DNA of 64,000 bases from Octopus vulgaris (Eukaryota), in NCBI GenBank assembly GCA_951406725.2, contig OX597821.1, positions 12,772,001 to 12,836,000 of the forward strand, in the 5' to 3' direction. Shown here piece by piece: positions 4,480 to 63,303 of this stretch. Positions within the stretch are counted from its first letter, which is position 1, and every line of letters starts with the position of its first letter. The notes under the pieces were generated by a model. It was not told where the DNA came from, did no database searches, and saw only the letters and a list, made by a program, of their open reading frames with translations. Both the position numbers and the translations under genes were made by a program.

Positions 4480-4900
4480 TATGGCCGACCAACACATGCT
4501 GTCATCCCAGGCGGAGCCTCTGAGAAAAGAACATGAAATGCAGAATCCAATCTGAAAAATGATGCAACAAGTTCAAACAATCTAAGCCGACGCTCCCAAA
4601 TCATACTAGTAACAAAACGCATCCAAGGATATGAGTATGGTCGTTGGTTGCATACGAAACCCAACGTCATCCGATGAAGCGTCCCGGCACCAAAGGAGTT
4701 CAGTCGAACCCTAAGTGCTCCGAGCAGTGTCTATGTTTCGTAACTCTACAGCAAGAGAAGGAGTACAAACCGTTTGTCCTTAGCTGAGGCATCCGCTGTG
4801 CCAAACACTCGTGCCCAGTAAGTTCACAAGTGCGCCAGCACGTCCAAGTTTTATCTCGGCATAAATATCCCAGACATCACAGATTTCAAAAGTGGAGTAA
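4480..4900 (-). mobile_element. Degenerate RTE-clade LINE fragment (3' part of ORF)
   Basis: Translation AEIKLGRAG...VWHS and SYET*TLLGALRVRLNSFGAGTLHR...FVCNQR...MRFVTSMIWERRLRLFELVASF...VGRP resembles the RTE C-terminus (YGCETWTL..RL..F..R.LRRI..W.D.VSN...RQLR.FGHVAR...GRP). Confidence 0.65.
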
Positions 4901-39083: not shown

Positions 39084-39476
39084 TACATATATACATATAT
39101 ATATAGGTTATAAAATGAGATAGGGGTTGAAAATTCAACCCACCATGGGATAATATATATCCAATATACTGCTAGATAGGTACCCAACAAAAATTAATAC
39201 ATAGATGTTAAAAATTGTCAAGCAATCAGTTCATCTATTGTATTAAATGGGTAAAGGTAATAATATTACCGTAAATTAATACTACAAAATTAGAGAATGG
39301 AGAAACATACTTAAATCAATAAAACATCAACTATCCGATGATACTCAATCCATACTTTAATACACCATTACATAGGAGTAAAGGCAATATATAAAATGAA
39401 ATGAGATATACAGTAATAGTAAAAGTAAAAAGATAAAGAGATATAAGTAAAAAATTACAAATATAATATGCAAATA

Positions 39477-39600
39477 AATCAAAACTGACAGCTGTTTCGG
39501 CAGTGAGGACAGTCATACCTCATTTAACCTATAAGCCATAAAGGCAGGTATAAATGAGGCATTAACAAAGATGCCCCACGGCCTCTTCAGAGAATTAAAT
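39477..39600 (-). ncRNA. Type-I hammerhead ribozyme in the PLE 3' UTR (sense copy)
   Basis: Minus strand CTGAAGA-GGC...GCC-GAAA-C AGCT G-TC-AG; mirror of 47291-47414. Confidence 0.75.
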
Positions 39601-39934
39601 TAAATTTGTTATAATAGTGAAAAATATTATATAATCATATACATATAAATATAAAAATATAAAAAAGTAAAATATAAAAACTTATACATCATAATGCTAC
39701 ACTTGTATAATATAATACACATTTGTACAAAAAGGAAGGTAACCAGAACAAAATAAAACAAAATATATAACAGTGTATATATAATATTAATAAGTACCGA
39801 TATCATACATATTTAGCTAATAGTTTTTTTTATAAAAAAAAGGGCTAACACATATGGAGATGAAAAATAATAATAATTAAATCCGTGGTACAGTTCATAA
39901 AATTCTAAAGCTATAAAAGTTAATAAAAATTACT

Positions 39935-39971
<37 letters not shown>

Positions 39972-41702
39972 GTAATAATAATAAAAAAAATACTAAAAAT
40001 AGATACAGTTAAGTTATCACCAAGTCCATCCTTCCAAGATCGAAATAACTATGAGTTAAGAAATGCTGACCACTAGGTAAAGAAAATTTAGATTAATTCG
40101 ATTGGCTATTGGTTTGAAATTTAAATCACAAAAGAAAATTATACGGTTGGTTAGTCAAGGAACGCCAATATTCACACACGCATCTACAGATCAATCGCAC
40201 ATACACACATAGTTATATGTATATACATACACTTGTACATATACATAATCATAAGCAACAACTAACACTTAGATAAACAAATAGGGAAGCAACCATGCTA
40301 ACACTAAGTCCTTCAAAATTATAACTGAGCCTCAATAACAAAAAAAGAACCATCCATGCATTCTATAAAATATTTAATTAAGATATAAATGTATTTTTAA
40401 ATATCAGTATGTTACTAATTCAGATAATTATTTCATGGGTAACTTAAAATTTATAACACCGGTTTGTTGCAGAGTAAACATACGGTTGTTAGGTTTATCG
40501 TAAGTTTGTTATGATTTAAAGTACGCTAAATTATAAAATATAAAATATAAAATATATTAATTTAGATATTATAAATAAGTCACTTATTAACTTAATAAAT
40601 ATAGTGCCAAAATATACCAGTTTAGGCAATAAAAAATAGAGGGGGAAGTATTAATGTAAACGCTTATGAGAACATCACAGAAATTTTAAATAAATTTTAT
40701 ATTATAAAGACTTAATATGAAAAGAGATAAAATAAATAAAAAGGAATAAATACGAAGGAATAAATACGGTTATACACATAATTATAAGTACAAACTAGTA
40801 TATATGTATTCATATATTATTAAAATAAATAAAAATAAATGATAGATATGTATGTATAAAACTACACCAGTATAAGTAAATAAGTAAAGAATAAATAGGT
40901 AACAAATTAGATGACTTGATATGTATGTAAACATCCACACTTAAATAGGCAAATAAATAAATAAATAGAAGACTAGATGCAAATATTGATAATATTACAA
41001 TAAAATGGGAAATAAATAAAAATAAATAAAGTGAATATATATATTTTATATTGTTGAAAGTAAATATGTATGGAAGGATAGTTTAAAGTACAGATCCAGA
41101 GGACTATAGATATAAACTAAATATATGAGGCTGGTAACAATTATAAAGCAAAATGCATGTAAATGAGAAAATGAAAAAAATGAAAAAGGTTTATCAGTGA
41201 ATAGCATAAGATACAAATTAAGGTGAGTACAAAAAGACCAAATATATAATAAAAACCTTCCAAATCAGCACATACAAAAAACCCATAATCTCAACCTAAA
41301 CCCACCAAACTCACAAAAGGCTCTCATATATTACATATTATACAATATCATTACATTATCCAGAGCTAGGTATCTAACCAAGATATACATATATACTTTG
41401 CAATATACTATGCAATATTGGAAAACTTCAAAAATCACACATTACAAGGCAAATACCAAAATGAATATGTTATTTTATGTCATATTGCATTTCTCTTAAA
41501 AAAAAACAAACAAAAACCCACATACAAAAACCAAGAAACCAATAATACTAGACACATCCAATTAGTTATTATACAAATGTAGCTATAAAAATTATAAAAT
41601 TATGAAATTTATAAATTGTATACTTTAGAATTATAGAAGACCACAGGTATATTTAGTTAAAGAAGGGAATTAAAAAATTGATAATAGTGGAAGTGCTAAG
41701 TT

Positions 41703-43037
41703 CTATTTGAATCTAGAAAAGGTGAACGGTAGCCTATGAATACAAAAGAAGTTTTTCTCATTAATGTTGTTAATAATTTGCCGACCCGCTTTAATAATGA
41801 AGAAAATTTCATTAATACATAGAGAGCATTTTTTATTTTTTCCATTATACACAGGTGCTGAAGTTAGTATTTTCCAGTTTAATCTAAAATCTAAGTTCTT
41901 ACTTTTAAGTTCCCAAATATATGCACTTAGCCCTGTAGAGTACATTCTATTTTTATTCCTAAAAGTATATCTATGATAATTCCATCTTTGTTTTATGCTA
42001 TTCATAGTTGCCCCGATATACACTCTACTACTCAATTGTGTATCTACAGTGCATTGGTAAACTACCTCCTTCCTGAGGCATTGATTACCAAATACACATT
42101 TATTTTTATTTCTGCAATTACAAAGATTAACAGAATGAGGAAATCTAAGATTGGACACCACCCCTATACTACTATTCACATTATAAGTGTTACAATTGTT
42201 ATCATCATCCAAACCCAAAATCAACGAATGAGTTAATTTCACATTATCGGCTATATTCCTATCACTAGTACTAGTATTGGTAGTAGTGGTATGATCTATT
42301 ACATTTATATTATCTCTGACAGGTATGGTGCACTCATTATTAGTAAGGAGGTTGCTCCCATTTGTTCCAAGAAAATTTCTATTCCTATTATTAATGAAGA
42401 GGGGCAAGTTTTCCTGGTCTAAATTCAATTTTCTATCCTTATAGAAGTGATCCAGTTTCTTGTTATTAAAAGAGGAGATGATGGTGGCTAGATTATGAGT
42501 AATGCTATATCCCACTCTAACAGTACCGTTGTTAATTAAAGGACTAAATTTATTCCTATCCTTACCAAAATGCCTAAAAATAATATTATGCAAAGCTCTC
42601 ACTATGTTTGTTTTAATCTGCATTGCATACGGGATAATCAACCAAAGAGTATCCTTATCAGAATTAGGATTGCCTATAGAATTAATGTTATTTGTAAAAA
42701 TCCTATTCGTAGACCAACTCATAGGATTACTATTCTTACCACTGTCATTGTTATGTCTATCTATATCAATATTACCATGGTTATTGCGCAAGTAAACTTT
42801 ACCATTATCATGTCTACCATAAGTTTTAATTCGTATATTATTATTAATATTACTACTACTACTCGTATGTTTAGATCTATTTGAGCTACCGTTCACCTTT
42901 CCAAGGTTAACGTCACTTCTACATTTATTATAGGTGTTATCATATATTCTGTTTTTACTATTCTTATGTATATTGTTGATTATCCTAAATCTATTTGTGT
43001 TGTTCTTGATAGTTCTACCTCCATTAGGGGGTTCCCC
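41703..43037 (-). CDS. PLE polyprotein C-terminal part: linker/thumb + GIY-YIG endonuclease with Cys motifs (frame opens at 43037)
   Basis: LWLIIPYAMQIKTNI...HF...NTVRVGYS-like segment, CNCRNKNKCVFGNQC, VVYQC...YIGAT...KQRWNYH, STGLSAYIWELK, WKIL, CSLCINE, CIHR: the Naiad-type arrangement. Confidence 0.88.
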   Translation of the reverse strand, partial: GEPPNGGRTIKNNTNRFRIINNIHKNSKNRIYDNTYNKCRSDVNLGKVNGSSNRSKHTSSSSNINNNIRIKTYGRHDNGKVYLRNNHGNIDIDRHNNDSGKNSNPMSWSTNRIFTNNINSIGNPNSDKDTLWLIIPYAMQIKTNIVRALHNIIFRHFGKDRNKFSPLINNGTVRVGYSITHNLATIISSFNNKKLDHFYKDRKLNLDQENLPLFINNRNRNFLGTNGSNLLTNNECTIPVRDNINVIDHTTTTNTSTSDRNIADNVKLTHSLILGLDDDNNCNTYNVNSSIGVVSNLRFPHSVNLCNCRNKNKCVFGNQCLRKEVVYQCTVDTQLSSRVYIGATMNSIKQRWNYHRYTFRNKNRMYSTGLSAYIWELKSKNLDFRLNWKILTSAPVYNGKNKKCSLCINEIFFIIKAGRQIINNINEKNFFCIHRLPFTFSRFK

Positions 43038-44545
43038 TTAGGTATAAACCAAATCTTACTTTTATATCCTGCCTTAAGTAATGCTGCATTGTATCTATCA
43101 CAGTGTTTGTTAAAAATTTCCTCGTTTGAGGATAAACTAGAAATTCTTTGACTAATGCTACGCACTAGTGCATTTTTAATTTGAGGGGGGTGATTACTAG
43201 AACGGTTAATGTATATTAGGTTAGAATTAGGTTTAATATAGGGTTCATGTAAACCATTAGTAATGTTACAATTAACATCTAAATAATTAGCAGAATAATT
43301 TTCACTTTCAATGATAATGGATAGGCCGAAGCTTTTAAAAAATTTGTTTATTCTTTTTTTCAGAAGATCTAATCTCCTATTTGATGTATTCCTAACACAA
43401 AATAAGGCGTCATCCCTGTATAATCCGCCTTTTAATTCAGGGAATTCCCTACTAAAGTTATCTAATAGATACATCCCAACTAGATCAGTCACCTCCGCTG
43501 AGTCCGGCGATCCCATTGTGATATCGAACAAGTTGGGTGTGTCCTTTCTAGCCCAAAGTTTATTATCAAACTCTATTAAAGTTTTCCTGGCTGTTAGTAT
43601 AACCTTAATCTCCCCCATACTTAATTTAGTGTGTTTTCTAGCAAAAATTAAGGACTTATTTAATATAATAGGGTTAATTGAAGTGTAATAATTCTGTATA
43701 TCGAATTGTATAAATTTATTTCTATTATAGCTAAAGTTGTTACTGTCACAGACCTTAATGGCAGAAAACCAATCCAAAGCACCCTGAGTATTCTTCCAAA
43801 GGTTTAGTTTGATTTTATTGCGGATGGTGGGTAGATATTTATCTAGAATGAGTTTACTTAGTCTGCCTAAGTCAGATTTAGTGGGGCAAATTAATCTGAC
43901 CTGTGTGTTTCCAAGAAAATTCTCTTTATGATCCTTTAGTGTAATTCTCGGTCTGGATGGGGTGTAGGGTTCCGTTTTTTCTTCTAGGTAGTAGTCAAAT
44001 ATGATTTCTCTGATCTCCAGGTTCAGCTTTCTAAGTGTACTAGAAGGTACTACTTTGTATTTCTTGGTTATTTCCTTGTGTAGAAGATCATGATATGCAG
44101 TAATGTCAATGTTGTAGATGTTGTTAGTTTTGTCAGAATGTGTTAGAATGCCACTCTTACCTTTGAGAGTTCTAATTAAGTCTTTCAATTCTCTTTGGTG
44201 CGGGTTATATCTTAAAGGATGATTTCTAAATTTTATGTTTTTTACAGTCTCCCATAGTTCTTGTTCAAAATTGTCTAGATGTATATTTGGTGGAGGAGAC
44301 TTTCTAGATTTAAATGTAGTGCTTGTTAGTTTTAATATTTCTTCATAGGTGCTTCCAATTCCATTACGGATCGTTTCTCCAGTGTGTTGTTGGTTTATTT
44401 TATTATTATAGTTCTCATGGTGGAAAATCCTCCATCTGATCCTATGGATGAATTCATTCATTCTATAAATTAGTTCTTTAGTGTAATGGTCTTTGGTAGG
44501 GATAGGTACATCCTTCATTGATGAATTGATCAGTATTTTCTCCAT
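42980..44545 (-). CDS. PLE polyprotein N-terminal part: reverse transcriptase (first ATG 44545)
   Basis: SMKDVPIP..Y...LI...F..RIRWR, SDKT, ITLKDHKENF, RLICPTKSDLG, FIQFDIQNYYTSI, FDITMGSPDSAEV, GGLYRDDAL, NYLDV, YI...SNHPP. Confidence 0.92.
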   Translation of the reverse strand: MEKILINSSMKDVPIPTKDHYTKELIYRMNEFIHRIRWRIFHHENYNNKINQQHTGETIRNGIGSTYEEILKLTSTTFKSRKSPPPNIHLDNFEQELWETVKNIKFRNHPLRYNPHQRELKDLIRTLKGKSGILTHSDKTNNIYNIDITAYHDLLHKEITKKYKVVPSSTLRKLNLEIREIIFDYYLEEKTEPYTPSRPRITLKDHKENFLGNTQVRLICPTKSDLGRLSKLILDKYLPTIRNKIKLNLWKNTQGALDWFSAIKVCDSNNFSYNRNKFIQFDIQNYYTSINPIILNKSLIFARKHTKLSMGEIKVILTARKTLIEFDNKLWARKDTPNLFDITMGSPDSAEVTDLVGMYLLDNFSREFPELKGGLYRDDALFCVRNTSNRRLDLLKKRINKFFKSFGLSIIIESENYSANYLDVNCNITNGLHEPYIKPNSNLIYINRSSNHPPQIKNALVRSISQRISSLSSNEEIFNKHCDRYNAALLKAGYKSKIWFIPKGNPLMEVELSRTTQIDLG

Positions 44546-44630
44546 TCTTCTAGCAGTAATGATCAAAGGAACAAATATACTACACTAGGGTGTATTCACA
44601 TGCACTATTAATATTTAAATCAATAAATGG

Positions 44631-45179
44631 ATGCTTATATTACACCAGTATGAGCAATTGGGTTTGGATGATGATAACAATTGTAACACTTATAATGTGA
44701 ATAGTAGTATAGGGGTGGTGTCCAATCTTAGATTTCCTCATTCTGTTAATCTTTGTAATTGCAGAAATAAAAATAAATGTGTATTTGGTAATCAATGCCT
44801 CAGGAAGGAGGTAGTTTACCAATGCACTGTAGATACACAATTGAGTAGTAGGGTGTATATCGGGGCAACTATGAATAGCATAAAACAAAGATGGAATTAT
44901 CACAGATATACTTTTAGGAATAAAAATAGAATGTACTCTACAGGGCTAAGTGCATACATTTGGGAACTTAAAAGTAAGAACTTAGATTTTAGATTAAACT
45001 GGAAAATACTAACTTCAGCACCTGTGTATAATGGAAAAAATAAAAAATGCTCTCTATGTATTAATGAAATTTTCTTCATTATTAAAGCGGGTCGGCAAAT
45101 TATTAACAACATTAATGAGAAAACTTCTTTTGTATTCATAGGCTACCGTTCACCTTTTCTAGATTCAAATAGAACTTAG
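44631..45179 (+). CDS. Inverted duplicate of the GIY-YIG domain with junction-derived ATG and C-terminal frameshift
   Basis: Protein identical to the minus-strand EN from LGLDDDNN to NINEK; one A fewer in the run at ~45120 removes CIHR. Confidence 0.55.
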   Translation: MLILHQYEQLGLDDDNNCNTYNVNSSIGVVSNLRFPHSVNLCNCRNKNKCVFGNQCLRKEVVYQCTVDTQLSSRVYIGATMNSIKQRWNYHRYTFRNKNRMYSTGLSAYIWELKSKNLDFRLNWKILTSAPVYNGKNKKCSLCINEIFFIIKAGRQIINNINEKTSFVFIGYRSPFLDSNRT

Positions 45180-46924
45180 CACTTCCACTATTATTAATTT
45201 TTTAATTCCCTTCTTTAACTAAATATACCTGTGGTCTTCTATAATTCTAAAGTATACAATTTATAAATTTCATAATTTTATAATTTTTATAGCTACATTT
45301 GTATAATAACTAATTGGATGTGTCTAGTATTATTGGTTTCTTGGTTTTTGTATGTGGGTTTTTGTTTGTTTTTTTTAAGAGAAATGCAATATGACATAAA
45401 ATAACATATTCATTTTGGTATTTGCCTTGTAATGTGTGATTTTTGAAGTTTTCCAATATTGCATAGTATATTGCAAAGTATATATGTATATCTTGGTTAG
45501 ATACCTAGCTCTGGATAATGTAATGATATTGTATAATATGTAATATATGAGAGCCTTTTGTGAGTTTGGTGGGTTTAGGTTGAGATTATGGGTTTTTTGT
45601 ATGTGCTGATTTGGAAGGTTTTTATTATATATTTGGTCTTTTTGTACTCACCTTAATTTGTATCTTATGCTATTCACTGATAAACCTTTTTCATTTTTTT
45701 CATTTTCTCATTTACATGCATTTTGCTTTATAATTGTTACCAGCCTCATATATTTAGTTTATATCTATAGTCCTCTGGATCTGTACTTTAAACTATCCTT
45801 CCATACATATTTACTTTCAACAATATAAAATATATATATTCACTTTATTTATTTTTATTTATTTCCCATTTTATTGTAATATTATCAATATTTGCATCTA
45901 GTCTTCTATTTATTTATTTATTTGCCTATTTAAGTGTGGATGTTTACATACATATCAAGTCATTTAATTTGTTACCTATTTATTCTTTACTTATTTACTT
46001 ATACTGGTGTAGTTTTATACATACATATCTATCATTTATTTTTATTTATTTTAATAATATATGAATACATATATACTAGTTTGTACTTATAATTATGTGT
46101 ATAACCGTATTTATTCCTTCGTATTTATTCCTTTTTATTTATTTTATCTCTTTTCATATTAAGTCTTTATAATATAAAATTTATTTAAAATTTCTGTGAT
46201 GTTCTCATAAGCGTTTACATTAATACTTCCCCCTCTATTTTTTATTGCCTAAACTGGTATATTTTGGCACTATATTTATTAAGTTAATAAGTGACTTATT
46301 TATAATATCTAAATTAATATATTTTATATTTTATATTTTATAATTTAGCGTACTTTAAATCATAACAAACTTACGATAAACCTAACAACCGTATGTTTAC
46401 TCTGCAACAAACCGGTGTTATAAATTTTAAGTTACCCATGAAATAATTATCTGAATTAGTAACATACTGATATTTAAAAATACATTTATATCTTAATTAA
46501 ATATTTTATAGAATGCATGGATGGTTCTTTTTTTGTTATTGAGGCTCAGTTATAATTTTGAAGGACTTAGTGTTAGCATGGTTGCTTCCCTATTTGTTTA
46601 TCTAAGTGTTAGTTGTTGCTTATGATTATGTATATGTACAAGTGTATGTATATACATATAACTATGTGTGTATGTGCGATTGATCTGTAGATGCGTGTGT
46701 GAATATTGGCGTTCCCTGACTAACCAACCGTATAATTTTCTTTTGTGATTTAAATTTCAAACCAATAGCCAATCGAATTAATCTAAATTTTCTTTACCTA
46801 GTGGTCAGCATTTCTTAACTCATAGTTATTTCGATCTTGGAAGGATGGACTTGGTGATAACTTAACTGTATCTATTTTTATTATTTTTTATTATTATTAA
46901 TTCTTCTTCTTCTTCTTCTTCTTC

Positions 46925-46956
<32 letters not shown>

Positions 46957-47290
46957 AGTAATTTTTATTAACTTTTATAGCTTTAGAATTTTATGAACTG
47001 TACCACGGATTTAATTATTATTATTTTTCATCTCCATATGTGTTAGCCCTTTTTTTTATAAAAAAAACTATTAGCTAAATATGTATGATATCGGTACTTA
47101 TTAATATTATATATACACTGTTATATATTTTGTTTTATTTTGTTCTGGTTACCTTCCTTTTTGTACAAATATGTATTATATTATACAAGTGTAGCATTAT
47201 GATGTATAAGTTTTTATATTTTACTTTTTTATATTTTTATATTTATATGTATATGATTATATAATATTTTTCACTATTATAACAAATTTA

Positions 47291-47414
47291 ATTTAATTCT
47301 CTGAAGAGGCCGTGGGGCATCTTTGTTAATGCCTCATTTATACCTGCCTTTATGGCTTATAGGTTAAATGAGGTATGACTGTCCTCACTGCCGAAACAGC
47401 TGTCAGTTTTGATT
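47291..47414 (+). ncRNA. Type-I hammerhead ribozyme in the inverted arm
   Basis: CTGAAGA 47301-47307, long stem II, GAAA 47393-47396, palindromic stem III CAGCTG, GTC triplet 47402-47404, weak stem I. Confidence 0.75.
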
Positions 47415-47647
47415 TATTTGCATATTGTATTTGTAATTTTTTACTTATATCTCTTTATCTTTTTACTTTTACTATTACTGTATATCTCATTTCATTTTAT
47501 ATATTGCCTTTACTCATATGTAATGGTGTATTAAAGTATGGATTGAGTATCATCGGATAGTTGATGTTTTACTGATTTAAGTATGTTTCTCCATTCTCTA
47601 ATTTTGTACATATATATATACATATATATATATATATACACACATAT

Positions 47648-47903
<256 letters not shown>

Positions 47904-48970
47904 AAGCATATTTTTTATGAGATCATTTCACAAAGATTACTTCTGTTTGAAATCGTGTTTCAAGTGAATGCTGTTGAAATTTCTGAAGGCCATGCTTCCA
48001 ATAATCAAAAGCATTCCTTACAGTTTACATTAGCTTTAATTTTAATGTTAAATAATATTTCTTATATGACACATCTGGCAACTTATCAAAGATTTGAAAT
48101 CTCCTGCTTACGTTACTTTGTCAGAAACCAATTATATGTTGTCAAGTATCGGTATGCATTGTATTAGAACTGTTCTTTACTTATTGTTCTTGATTTAATT
48201 TCTGTTATTTGCTGTTTTTGTTGCCTTTTATTTTCGTTTCGGTCATTTTTTTTTCTGGAGCCAATATAAGAACAAAAGTACATTCGTGTACATATCTTTA
48301 CGCACTTCACTTTTTGGCTTTTGTAAGGTATCTTTATCGCTATAGATGTCTTTATTTTCTGTATGTATAAGTGTGTTTGCTGCTTGTATATAGTATGGTA
48401 GTATGGTTCGATTTTGCTGCATTTAATCTTATTAGCCGTAGTACTGGGGTGGTGGTAGAAGTTCGTTATCTATATTCGTATCTCTTCCTGTAAATGCCTA
48501 TGTTTTTAAACATCTCCATATTTATATACTCACAAATACATGTGCACATACGCACGATAGTATATGCACTACATATATATAATTATATATATCTACACAC
48601 ACGTGCCACGCATATGCGCTTATTTCAATGCTGCTGACAAACTCAATACAATAGCTTAAATTTGGTTCTAATCCTGGTTTTATCTGAATCCCGAAGAAAT
48701 ATTTCAGCAGTCATTGTAATGTAAACAAACATGAGATATCAGTTCAGATTTGAATAGATGATTACGACTAATATGTCACACGCAGCAAGTGTTTGTTTCA
48801 TCTCTTTGCTTTGATCGCATATGGGAAAAATATTAACAGAATCAGATTTCTGAAATGTCGCTTCGACTACCATTAGCAATTTCAAAGGAAAAATTTACTA
48901 AATGCGTATCATTACCTGAGAATATGATTTTATGTGTGTTTGTGTGTGCGTGTGTATAGACACACATATG

Positions 48971-61305: not shown

Positions 61306-61308
<3 letters not shown>

Positions 61309-62183
61309 GAGGGTACTATTATTCATAGGTACCGCACGCTAGGAGGGACTTTTGCAGTCAAAACTACTAAAATAAACAAATTGTACCGAATGAAAAACTT
61401 CAAAGCAAGTCATTTAAAAACAGAATGTAGTTACATATCACCTGTGATTTCGAAATCAATGCAGAATATGCCTTCTATGCTCTTCAGTGCAGCGAACTCA
61501 AAATAAAACACAACATTACAAACCCGACAGCCAACCGTAGAATTCGCCGCACCATGTACGAATGTTTATCTTTACATATCTATGAAAATGGCGGGCTTAT
61601 TCGCAATGCATTTCGGTAACAACTTGCCTGCTCAGAACAAAAATTCAGTATTGAACTATTCCGGTGAAAAATATAAATTTAAAATTAAGGATAAAATATT
61701 TATAAGAAATTATCAGTAGTTAGCGTGAAAAACCTCGTAAGAGAAAACATCTGTAAATTTTTCCAATTTGAAAATATTTATTTATATTATATAGAGGGTA
61801 CTATATTATTCATAGGTACCGCACGCTAGGCGAATTCTACGGTTGGCTGTCGGGTTTGTAATGTTGTGTTTTTTCTTATATGTCTTGAGTTCGTGGCACT
61901 GAAGAGCATATAATGCATATTCTGCATTGATTGCGAAATCACAGGTGATATGTAACTAAATTCTGTTTTTAAATGACTTGCTTTGAAGTTTTGCATTCGG
62001 TACAATTTGTTTATTTTAGTAGTTTTTACTGCAAACGTCTCTCCTAGTGTGCGGTACCTATGAATAATAGTACCCTCTATATAATATAAATAAATATTTT
62101 CAAAGTGGAAACATTTACAGATTTTTTCTCTTACAAGGTTTTTCACGCTAACTACTGATTATTTCTTATAAAATCCTTAATTT

Positions 62184-62187
<4 letters not shown>
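61306..62187. mobile_element. Partial-tandem plus inverted repeat element with two hammerhead motifs, in (TA)n
   Basis: Unit 61306-61790 restarts at 61791 (ATAGAGGGTACTA); 61829-62187 is an inverted copy; HHR motifs at 61431-61492 (-) and 61894-61955 (+). Confidence 0.75.
61894..61955 (+). ncRNA. Type-I hammerhead ribozyme motif
   Basis: GCA-CTGAAGA-GCA tat AATGCA tattc TGCATT gat TGC-GAAA-TCAC ag GTGA-TA-TGT. Confidence 0.75.
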
Positions 62188-62257
<70 letters not shown>

Positions 62258-62269
62258 TATATATATAAA

Positions 62270-62989
62270 TATAAAATTAAATAAGGGTAGATATTAATCA
62301 ATTAAAACCAACGGCTTAGCATATTTTAAAAAATCCGAAGATTAAAAGTTGTGTTACATACAAAATTTAGAAGACTGACAACTAAAGTGGACAGCCTATA
62401 TGCTAAAGACAGACGTCAAATCGCCATTACCACGAAGAATGTGTTCTGAAGAAAAATCTCAGCAAAAAAACAAAATGTAAAAATAAGCAAGACAAATAAA
62501 AATATACGAAATAAAAACAAGGATTACCTATGTACCATTGGTTTCACTCGTTAATATTTACGCATATGAACACGCAAATATCTGCAAGACCGTGAGCATA
62601 GCCTGTCGTTTACAAAACATAATTTCCAGAACTAGATACAGAACACCAAAGTGAAGGCATTTGAAAGATACACCTAAATACAATTTGTAGAACATTATAC
62701 ATATTGGATTTGGGTTGAGCGTTCTGTAAGTAGTTCTGGAAATTATGTTTTGTAAACGACAGACTATGCTGACGATCTTGCAGATATTTGCGTCTCCATA
62801 TAGTTAAATGTTAACAGGTGAAACCAATGGTACATAGGTAAACGTATTTTCTTATTTCGTATATTTTCATTTGTCTTGCTTATTTTTACATTTTGGTCTT
62901 TTGGTGAGAATTTTCTTCGTGGTAACCGCGATTTGACGTCTATGTTTATCATATAGGCTGTCCACTTTAGCGGTCAGTTCTCTAAATTT

Positions 62990-62993
<4 letters not shown>
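62270..62993. mobile_element. Head-to-head inverted element (arms 62359-62634 and 62731-62993) with hammerhead motifs, in (TA)n
   Basis: Arms are diverged reverse complements around a ~95-bp spacer; (TA)n on both sides. Confidence 0.8.
62764..62837 (+). ncRNA. Type-I hammerhead ribozyme motif
   Basis: CTATG-CTGACGA-stem II-GAAA-CCA A TGG-TA-CATAG: perfect 5-bp stem I, palindromic stem III, GTA triplet; first stem II pair is T.T. Confidence 0.72.
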
Positions 62994-63044
<51 letters not shown>

Positions 63045-63090
63045 CAATAATAAATCTCTGAACGAGATGTAAACAGTAACCGCTCGACAA

Positions 63091-63223
63091 CGTAAAGTAT
63101 ACTAGCCATCTCAATATGGCTAACCATTAAGGGTGGCAGTTACTGTACGACTCCTGGGGCTAAAAGCTACAGTAACACCCACCCTTAGTGGTTAGCCATG
63201 TTGAGATGGTTAGTATACTTTAC
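63091..63223. repeat. Inverted repeat of a Helitron-internal segment
   Basis: CGTAAAGTATACTAGCCATCTCAATATGGCTAACCA / TGGTTAGCCATGTTGAGATGGTTAGTATACTTTACG; same sequence at 54843-54903. Confidence 0.8.
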
Positions 63224-63227
63224 GTTA

Positions 63228-63303
<76 letters not shown>

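What the first reader, a model, noticed from the sequence alone, without database searches (positions are those of the whole stretch)
62270..62993. Miniature mimic of the large Naiad with matching termini
Seen: same layout as 39107-47608, with inverted arms, outward HHRs, a longer left arm and (TA)n flanks. The right arm ends TTCTCTAAATTTTGTA|CATATA versus TTCTCTAATTTTGTA|CATATA at 47594-47614. The left end TATAAAATTAAATAAGGGTAGA resembles TATAAAATGAGATAGGGGTTGA at 39110. The HHRs themselves differ. Inference: shared cis-signals fix where the inverted arm ends and where the 3' end primes, implying a defined two-step integration mechanism.
Basis: partly seen in the sequence, partly recalled or inferred. 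Interest (0 to 1): 0.7.

Follow-up and report, generated by a model that had tools for sequence, protein, structure and literature searches.

The report
Retrozyme pair sharing Hydra-retroelement end signals
This 724-base stretch is two back-to-back partial copies of a common non-coding repeat with a hammerhead-ribozyme motif, and its two fixed end points resemble those of a protein-coding Penelope-type jumping gene nearby, which likely means that enzyme family copies it by starting twice on one RNA.

Summary
Observation largely confirmed, labels corrected. The large element is a Hydra-clade Penelope-like element (PLE), not a Naiad. The 'miniature' is two 5'-truncated, head-to-head copies of a 527-bp tandem hammerhead repeat, a non-LTR retrozyme. 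Both families end at two fixed sites in (TA)n: tail-less S1 and tailed S2. The S1 motif plus (TA)7 occurs 1,001 times against 1 control. Pairs carry one S1 and one S2 arm: 23 of 23 resolved large-family pairs; 15 of 25 mini pairs, none S1+S1 or S2+S2. Mini and large ends match beyond chance at both sites, but three other families' ends do not match the mini's, so the signal is not universal. Inner ends coincide in 10 of 26 pairs (1.2 expected), and arms usually share a haplotype, which favours two priming events on one RNA over fold-back (inferred). Tails, inverted arms and two initiation sites are published for PLEs. This scan already proposed twin priming for other retrozymes of this genome. 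New here is the end-signal match to one autonomous family.

The parts
62270..62644 (-). Left arm: 5'-truncated copy of the 527-bp hammerhead repeat (unit positions 153-527), ending at the tailed site S2
62270..62358 (-). 89-bp tail between S1 and S2, present only on the left arm; ends ...CTACCCTTATTTAATTTTATA|(TA)n
62359..62372 (-). S1 motif read through in the left arm (TTCTAAATTTTGTA)
62527..62602 (-). Left hammerhead motif with two catalytic-core changes (CTCACGG in place of CTGAnGA); predicted inactive
62645..62993 (+). Right arm: 5'-truncated copy of the same repeat (unit positions about 78-437), ending at the tail-less site S1; joined head-to-head with about 1 base of overlap
62763..62838 (+). 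Right type I hammerhead motif: intact core, 5-bp stem I, long stem II with U.U at its first pair, 3-bp stem III; predicted cut after 62832; cleavage untested
   Evidence: constrained fold -9.3 vs free -10.0 kcal/mol; z 0.02, free fold is not the hammerhead
62980..62993 (+). S1 motif CTCTAAATTTTGTA at the junction with (TA)n
62187..62269 (.). Left (TA)n target microsatellite
62994..63044 (.). Right (TA)n target microsatellite
39107..44657 (-). Large element, main copy: Hydra-clade PLE (RT frame 44584-42983, EN frame 43037-41706, frameshift near 43000, Asn-rich linker, 2.6-kb 3' region, hammerhead core at 39590, 176-bp tail 39107-39282 ending at S2)
44658..47608 (+). Large element, inverted 5'-truncated copy, hammerhead core at 47301, ending tail-less at S1 (CTCTAATTTTGTA)

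Best explanation
The stretch is a head-to-head pair of truncated copies of a 527-bp non-coding hammerhead repeat whose two fixed ends resemble those of the neighbouring Hydra-clade Penelope-like element, and it was likely written into a (TA)n run by that lineage's reverse transcriptase-endonuclease, which likely primes twice on one RNA. Shown: repeat identity, two fixed ends, one end type per arm, end-motif match to the large family, coincident inner ends. Inferred steps: (1) the RNA carries two internal start signals, S1 and S2, 89 nt apart (176 nt in the large element); (2) the endonuclease nicks both strands of (TA)n; (3) one nicked strand primes cDNA at S1, the other at S2, helped by the UGUA/UAUA at each site pairing with a TA primer end; (4) the S2 cDNA either stops near S1 or follows behind and displaces the first cDNA, and both often run off the same RNA 5' end; (5) the two cDNA 3' ends are joined head-to-head with 0-14 bases of overlap or a few filler bases. 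The repeat is non-autonomous and keeps the end signals because the enzyme needs them.
For: Two fixed ends: 32 distinct large-family arms end at S1 (19), S2 (9) or read through into a tandem unit (4), none elsewhere; 34 of 41 mini arm ends in 27 loci chosen without regard to the end fall on S1 or S2; S1+(TA)7 pattern 1,001 matches (some double-counted) vs 1 control. Asymmetry: 23 of 23 resolved large-family pairs are S1+S2, 4 of 27 unresolved; mini 15 of 25 S1+S2, 0 S1+S1, 0 S2+S2. One template: arms differ at no more than 1 segregating site in 19 of 22 informative large-family pairs, including 5 pairs of minority subfamilies; mini arms agree at 47 of 56 polymorphic sites vs 30.4 expected. Inner ends within 20 nt in 10 of 26 pairs, permutation mean 1.2, 0 of 20,000 reach 10. 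Four tailed arms start at or inside the tail (L097, L100, L105, L150), as expected if the S2 cDNA is blocked at S1. Partner: mini-large match at S1 and S2, 0 of 342 background and 0 of 2000 shuffles each; a TTG..CAA hairpin just before S2 is in the predicted folds of the mini (L013), large and related tails. Published: both-strand nicking and extension and two internal initiation sites bounding the tail for a Poseidon PLE (PMC11167929).
Against: All mechanism is read from insertion footprints; no biochemistry. In 3 of 22 large-family pairs the arms are different haplotypes (window copy 9 differences, L115 12, L098 4), so these came from two RNAs or two units of a tandem RNA. Subfamily sharing could also reflect subfamilies active at different times; polymorphic sites are linked. 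The window's mini arms are no closer to each other (10.2%) than to other copies (median 9.4%). 10 of 25 mini pairs have one end off both sites. The motif match is short and AT-rich and weaker with another copy (4 and 36 of 2000). A family whose tail is 73-77% identical to the large element's has ends that do not match the mini's (608 and 127 of 2000). Mini copies are older (5.1% from majority) than most large copies (0.5-6.5% from the window copy). The window copy's own S2 hairpin is damaged and does not fold.
Confidence: 0.6

Rival explanations
1. Two RNAs in a dimeric enzyme: each nicked strand primes on its own RNA, with one subunit fixed on S1 and the other on S2.
For: Arms of different haplotype in 3 of 22 pairs, including the window's large element; PLE protein predicted to be a dimer (PMC11167929); overlapping arms need no strand displacement.
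Against: Coincident, locus-specific inner ends in 10 of 26 pairs and matched rare haplotypes in 19 of 22 are not expected from two independent RNAs; no reason for strict S1/S2 asymmetry.
Confidence: 0.2
2. Fold-back self-priming: one cDNA primed at S2 folds back, copies itself and is cut or stops at S1 (self-priming was proposed in PMC3846280; endonuclease resolution of the tail in PMC8557442).
For: Explains identical arms and near-palindromic junctions in the 10 coincident pairs and the 7 pairs with a longer tailed arm.
Against: Fold-back cannot make a tail-less arm that reaches further 5' than the tailed arm; this is seen in 9 of 26 large-family pairs and in the window's mini (unit 78 vs 153). 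In L097 and L100 the arms do not overlap at all.
Confidence: 0.1
3. The mini is a PLE-mobilised retrozyme, but its end match to this particular large family is coincidence or convergence on T-tract/TA target pairing; some other Hydra-type enzyme moved it.
For: Four of five families examined end S1 in ...TTGTA; age mismatch; closer tail relative lacks the exact motifs; only five families compared, of many in the genome (19,665 first-look EN candidates).
Against: Same-site matches at both ends are the only significant ones among the unrelated families in the 28 comparisons (next best: large S1 vs mini S2, 20 of 2000); large-family subfamilies up to 6.5% diverged keep the S1 motif.
Confidence: 0.3
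4. The 527-bp unit is only the terminal repeat of an undiscovered autonomous PLE, and the insertion is an ordinary doubly truncated PLE copy.
For: Same layout as truncated pairs of autonomous families; L026 has endonuclease-coding DNA upstream of a mini copy.
Against: Upstream of the unit lies another unit, not an ORF, in tandem loci (L007, L012, L019, L022, L023, L029, L030 and others); longest ATG frame in a dimer is 23 aa; L026 is a chimera of separate repeat families. Loci reach only 1.5 kb from the match.
Confidence: 0.07

Closest known systems
Metazoan non-LTR retrozymes (Cervera & de la Pena 2020, PMC7229834, passages read; Li, Clavereau & Pollet 2026, bioRxiv 10.64898/2026.07.22.740005, parts 1-3 of 5 read = main text, supplements closed)
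   Same: Non-coding, low-GC (31%), tandem unit with one type I hammerhead; dispersed high copy; proposed to be moved by PLEs.
   Different: Here the link to a PLE is by two short end signals and insertion geometry, with no alignable body; 'inverted' does not occur in the main text of PMC7229834. Cleavage and circular RNA were not tested here.
Hydra-clade PLEs (Craig et al. 2021, PMC8557442; passages and section 11 read)
   Same: Large element: RT then C-terminal GIY-YIG, DKT, CxCx5C linker, CxxC and CxH, no CCHH, hammerhead, (TA)n target, inverted 5'-truncated copy, tail on one end.
   Different: 5.5-kb unit instead of under 3 kb; RWR for RWK; Asn-rich linker; tails of 68-190 nt in the five families seen, against the 30-40 bp given for PLEs.
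Poseidon PAc of the green anole (Frangieh et al. 2024, PMC11167929; parts 1-2 of 4 read = main text and start of Methods)
   Same: Two internal reverse-transcription start sites bound the tail and match genomic ends; both target strands are nicked and extended; AT-rich target.
   Different: That paper reports no start-site difference between strands and does not tie one site to each arm of an inverted pair; different clade; sites are adjacent rather than 89-176 nt apart.
Adineta vaga Penelope elements (Arkhipova et al. 2013, PMC3846280; passages read)
   Same: Head-to-head inverted pLTRs, tail on one arm, cis-acting termini sufficient for mobilisation in trans, Asn-rich inserts.
   Different: They proposed self-priming; the arm-length data here exclude simple fold-back for 9 of 26 pairs.
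LINE-1 twin priming (recalled; no call)
   Same: Second target strand primes internally on the same RNA, giving an inverted segment.
   Different: In L1 the second site is random and the segments barely overlap; here the second site is fixed and the arms usually overlap widely.

Membership tests
Non-LTR retrozyme (mini) | Tandem repeat unit of a few hundred bp, low GC | tested here: met
   527-bp unit, head-to-tail in several loci; GC 31%
Non-LTR retrozyme (mini) | Type I hammerhead motif in each unit | tested here: met
   Core and stems I-III found by motif scan and constrained fold; core bases 0.94-1.0 conserved apart from the variable N7. Rfam listed no hammerhead among the 150 of 220 rows shown; first stem II pair is U.U
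Non-LTR retrozyme (mini) | No protein-coding capacity, no LTR/PBS/PPT | tested here: met
   Longest ATG frame in a unit dimer 23 aa; PBS/PPT not searched for
Non-LTR retrozyme (mini) | Self-cleavage and circular RNA | not testable with these tools
   No listed holder on record as RNA; only contigs
Naiad (large element) | N-terminal GIY-YIG before RT, CCHH, DKA motif | tested here: not met
   EN is C-terminal, no CCHH, DKT (vs PMC8557442)
Naiad (large element) | No canonical hammerhead | tested here: not met
   CTGAAGA...CGAAACAGCTGTC in both arms, stem II z -4.2
Hydra-clade PLE (large element) | RT with DKT and RWK, C-terminal GIY-YIG | tested here: met
   HSDKTNN, IRWRIF (RWR variant), VVY..YIG; Pfam gave no hit
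Hydra-clade PLE (large element) | CxCx5C linker, CxxC and CxH flanking E and N, no CCHH | tested here: met
   CNCRNKNKC, CSLC, CIH
Hydra-clade PLE (large element) | Hammerhead and (TA)n target | tested here: met
Hydra-clade PLE (large element) | Placement in the Hydra clade on an RT tree with reference PLEs | not tested
   No reference sequences were fetched; membership rests on motifs

The most novel reading that the evidence does not exclude
Penelope-like enzymes read a family-specific two-part address on their RNA (S1 and S2), start one cDNA from each target strand at these two fixed sites on the same molecule, and unrelated retrozymes parasitise one chosen family by carrying only that address, so end motifs alone can pair each retrozyme with its enzyme.
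Probability: 0.35. Interest if true: 0.65.

Novelty: new variant of a known kind. Interest (0 to 1): 0.45.

Why it matters
How PLEs make their inverted, one-tailed insertions and which enzymes move animal retrozymes are both stated as open in the papers read (PMC8557442, PMC11167929, 10.64898/2026.07.22.740005). This locus gives a candidate enzyme-parasite pair with two short, mutable signals, and a young large family (copies with 860-960-aa open frames exist), so both questions become testable in vitro. The component parts are known, and other retrozymes in this genome already gave the same model in this scan.

Tried and rejected
Rfam scan of the window: only microsatellite-driven miRNA hits among the 150 of 220 rows shown; hammerheads were found by motif scan instead. 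Pfam: no family for either frame. Free folding of the right hammerhead: z 0.02, not the hammerhead fold, so energy gives no support. Protein search with the EN domain: the 150 scored hits were all the same family, so other Hydra families were found through tblastn of held loci. DNA search with L026: split into two unrelated repeat families; no clean end analysis. Expression: no RNA holder listed; four runs guessed to be RNA, contigs only, laid at 85%: no conclusion on transcription, cleavage or circles. Universal end motif: rejected; the neighbouring retrozyme (61307-62187) and a second Hydra family have two fixed ends with other motifs. Body homology between mini and large 3' region: none. 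Assembly artefact: rejected; arms are about 84% identical and the layout recurs at many loci. Target-site duplication cannot be read inside (TA)n. Literature: Penelope with 'twin priming' plus three further terms and with 'twin-priming' gave 0 papers; some searches gave the papers cited. The library lacks most subscription papers, and no supplements were read (those of PMC8557442 may list Hydra tails). Look-ups of earlier scan notes by sequence, words and nearby place gave nothing.

Full report
Observation. The stretch 62270-62993 lies between (TA)n runs and consists of two inverted arms joined at 62644/62645 with no spacer. The left arm reads on the minus strand and has an 89-bp outer extension; the right arm reads on the plus strand, reaches about 75 bases further 5', and stops at CTCTAAATTTTGTA. 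The large element 39107-47608 has the same plan: main copy 39107-44657 (minus) with a 176-bp extension, inverted copy 44658-47608 stopping at CTCTAATTTTGTA. The left ends match at 18 of 22 bases. Each match beats all 342 comparisons with 171 random (TA)n junctions from twenty 10-kb stretches and all 2000 shuffles.

The large element. It encodes an RT frame (44584-42983) and an endonuclease frame (43037-41706) separated by a frameshift. The order RT then GIY-YIG, the motifs DKT, RWR, CNCRNKNKC, CSLC and CIH, the absence of CCHH, a hammerhead and (TA)n targeting fit the Hydra clade of Craig et al. (PMC8557442, section 11) and contradict Naiad, which has an N-terminal endonuclease and no canonical hammerhead. 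No tree was built. The family is young and abundant (1,177 first-look candidates).

The mini. It is a repeat with 2,907 first-look candidates, 40 scored. Tandem loci define a 527-bp unit, 31% GC, longest ATG frame 23 aa, copies a median 5.1% from the majority. Each unit has a type I hammerhead motif; in the window the right copy has an intact core and can adopt the fold at 0.7 kcal/mol above the free fold, while the left copy has two core changes. This meets the sequence definition of a non-LTR retrozyme (PMC7229834; bioRxiv 10.64898/2026.07.22.740005). Cleavage and circles are untested. The unit's body does not align with the large element's 3' region.

Two fixed ends. For the large family, a query upstream of both sites gave 32 distinct arms: 19 end at S1 with up to about 6 bases of jitter, 9 at S2, 4 read through into a tandem unit, none elsewhere (counted by hand). 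For the mini, 27 loci chosen the same way gave 20 S1, 14 S2 and 7 other ends. The S1 motif followed by (TA)7 occurs 1,001 times, with some double counting, against 1 for the reversed control. Of the 26 distinct places fetched, 25 belong to these two families (for L124 and L126 only the adjoining partner arm was long enough to align) and L125 matched neither.

One end type per arm. Of 27 head-to-head pairs of the large family, 23 could be followed to both ends and all are S1+S2; 7 of these were picked by their S1 end, 16 were not; 4 ran off the fetched DNA or were unresolved. Of 25 mini pairs, 15 are S1+S2, none S1+S1 or S2+S2, and 10 have one end elsewhere, some from decay or later insertions. 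A neighbouring 492-bp retrozyme (window 61307-62187) gives 14 S1+S2 of 17 pairs, and a second, unrelated Hydra family shows the same two-end pattern. The geometry is thus general in this genome.

The signal is family-specific. Among 28 end-by-end comparisons of four families, only mini-large S1 and mini-large S2 reach 0 of 2000; the next best is large S1 vs mini S2 at 20 of 2000. A fifth family whose tail is 73-77% identical to the large element's uses the homologous two sites, but its ends do not match the mini's. This cuts both ways: the match is not a generic PLE end, but the motif drifts even among relatives, so coincidence or convergence is not excluded. A TTG..CAA hairpin precedes S2 in the predicted folds of the mini (L013), large and fifth families, with different flanking pairs; it is damaged in the window copy. 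The mini is older than most large copies, though large subfamilies up to 6.5% from the window copy keep the S1 motif.

Mechanism (inferred). In 26 large-family pairs (L101, tandem on both sides, left out; four partner ends assumed tailed) the inner ends lie within 20 nt in 10 (permutation mean 1.2, maximum 6), the tail-less arm reaches further 5' in 9 and the tailed arm in 7. Arms differ at 0-1 segregating sites in 19 of 22 informative pairs, and at 4, 9 and 12 in the other three, one of which is the window's large element. Mini arms agree at 47 of 56 linked polymorphic sites against 30.4 expected, though the window's own arms are no closer than unrelated copies overall. Simple fold-back cannot give a longer tail-less arm. 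Two independent RNAs do not explain the coincident ends. Two primers, one from each nicked strand, starting at S1 and S2 of one RNA explain the asymmetry, the short tailed arms that stop near S1 and the coincident ends; mixed-haplotype pairs would come from two units of a tandem transcript or from two RNAs. Overlapping arms then require strand displacement, which is assumed. This extends the in vitro result for a Poseidon PLE, where both strands are nicked and extended and two internal starts bound the tail (PMC11167929), and resembles L1 twin priming (recalled).

Novelty. Inverted copies, a tail on one end, cis-acting termini and PLE-derived retrozymes are all published. Two searches for Penelope with twin priming found no paper in the held library. 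Earlier notes of this scan already propose two fixed start points and twin priming for other retrozymes of this genome; my first reading was written before seeing them and they are not independent support. What this finding adds is a match of both end signals between a retrozyme and one autonomous Hydra family with no other homology, and the contrast with three other families. Verdict: real, a new variant of a known kind, interest 0.45.

Noticed in passing
window 61307-62187: A second head-to-head hammerhead retrozyme pair (492-bp unit, 1,997 first-look candidates) shares the left (TA)n run with the finding; two fixed ends with other motifs.
   Followed up: yes
L224-L253 (e.g. G000:C11:15973688-15977148): A second young Hydra-type autonomous family (copies 99-100% identical), 68-nt tail, ends ...ACATATTGTA and ...CCGTTTTATCAA; short derivatives with its terminal repeat are common, one on the window's minus strand near 48420-48500.
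   Followed up: partly
window 42983-43037: 39 of 150 top endonuclease hits share the same 444-aa frame as the frameshifted window copy, 5 have 860 aa or more (hand count). Either a frameshifted variant was spread in trans or a homopolymer is often misassembled.
   Followed up: no
window 42200-43000: About 200-aa Asn-rich linker between RT and endonuclease, like the N-rich inserts of Adineta Penelopes (PMC3846280).
   Followed up: no
large family, reference positions 4560-4635: 5' truncations cluster just upstream of the (TTA)n tract in the 3' region; possibly a transcription start or RT stop.
   Followed up: no
L026:740-1890: Chimera of a Hydra-like endonuclease fragment, another hammerhead repeat and a mini unit, the last junction at a shared ACTG; may record template switches between families.
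   Followed up: partly
window 63045-63230: A short repeat with about 45-bp inverted arms directly right of the finding; similar sequence follows (TA)n in L077 and L252.
   Followed up: no
window 53942, 61198 (plus strand): Further hammerhead-like cores next to (TA)n-ended repeats; the 61198 family recurs in random samples.
   Followed up: no
L254-L278: Older family with a tail 73-77% identical to the large element's, about 190 nt long, same two-end use; autonomy not determined.
   Followed up: partly
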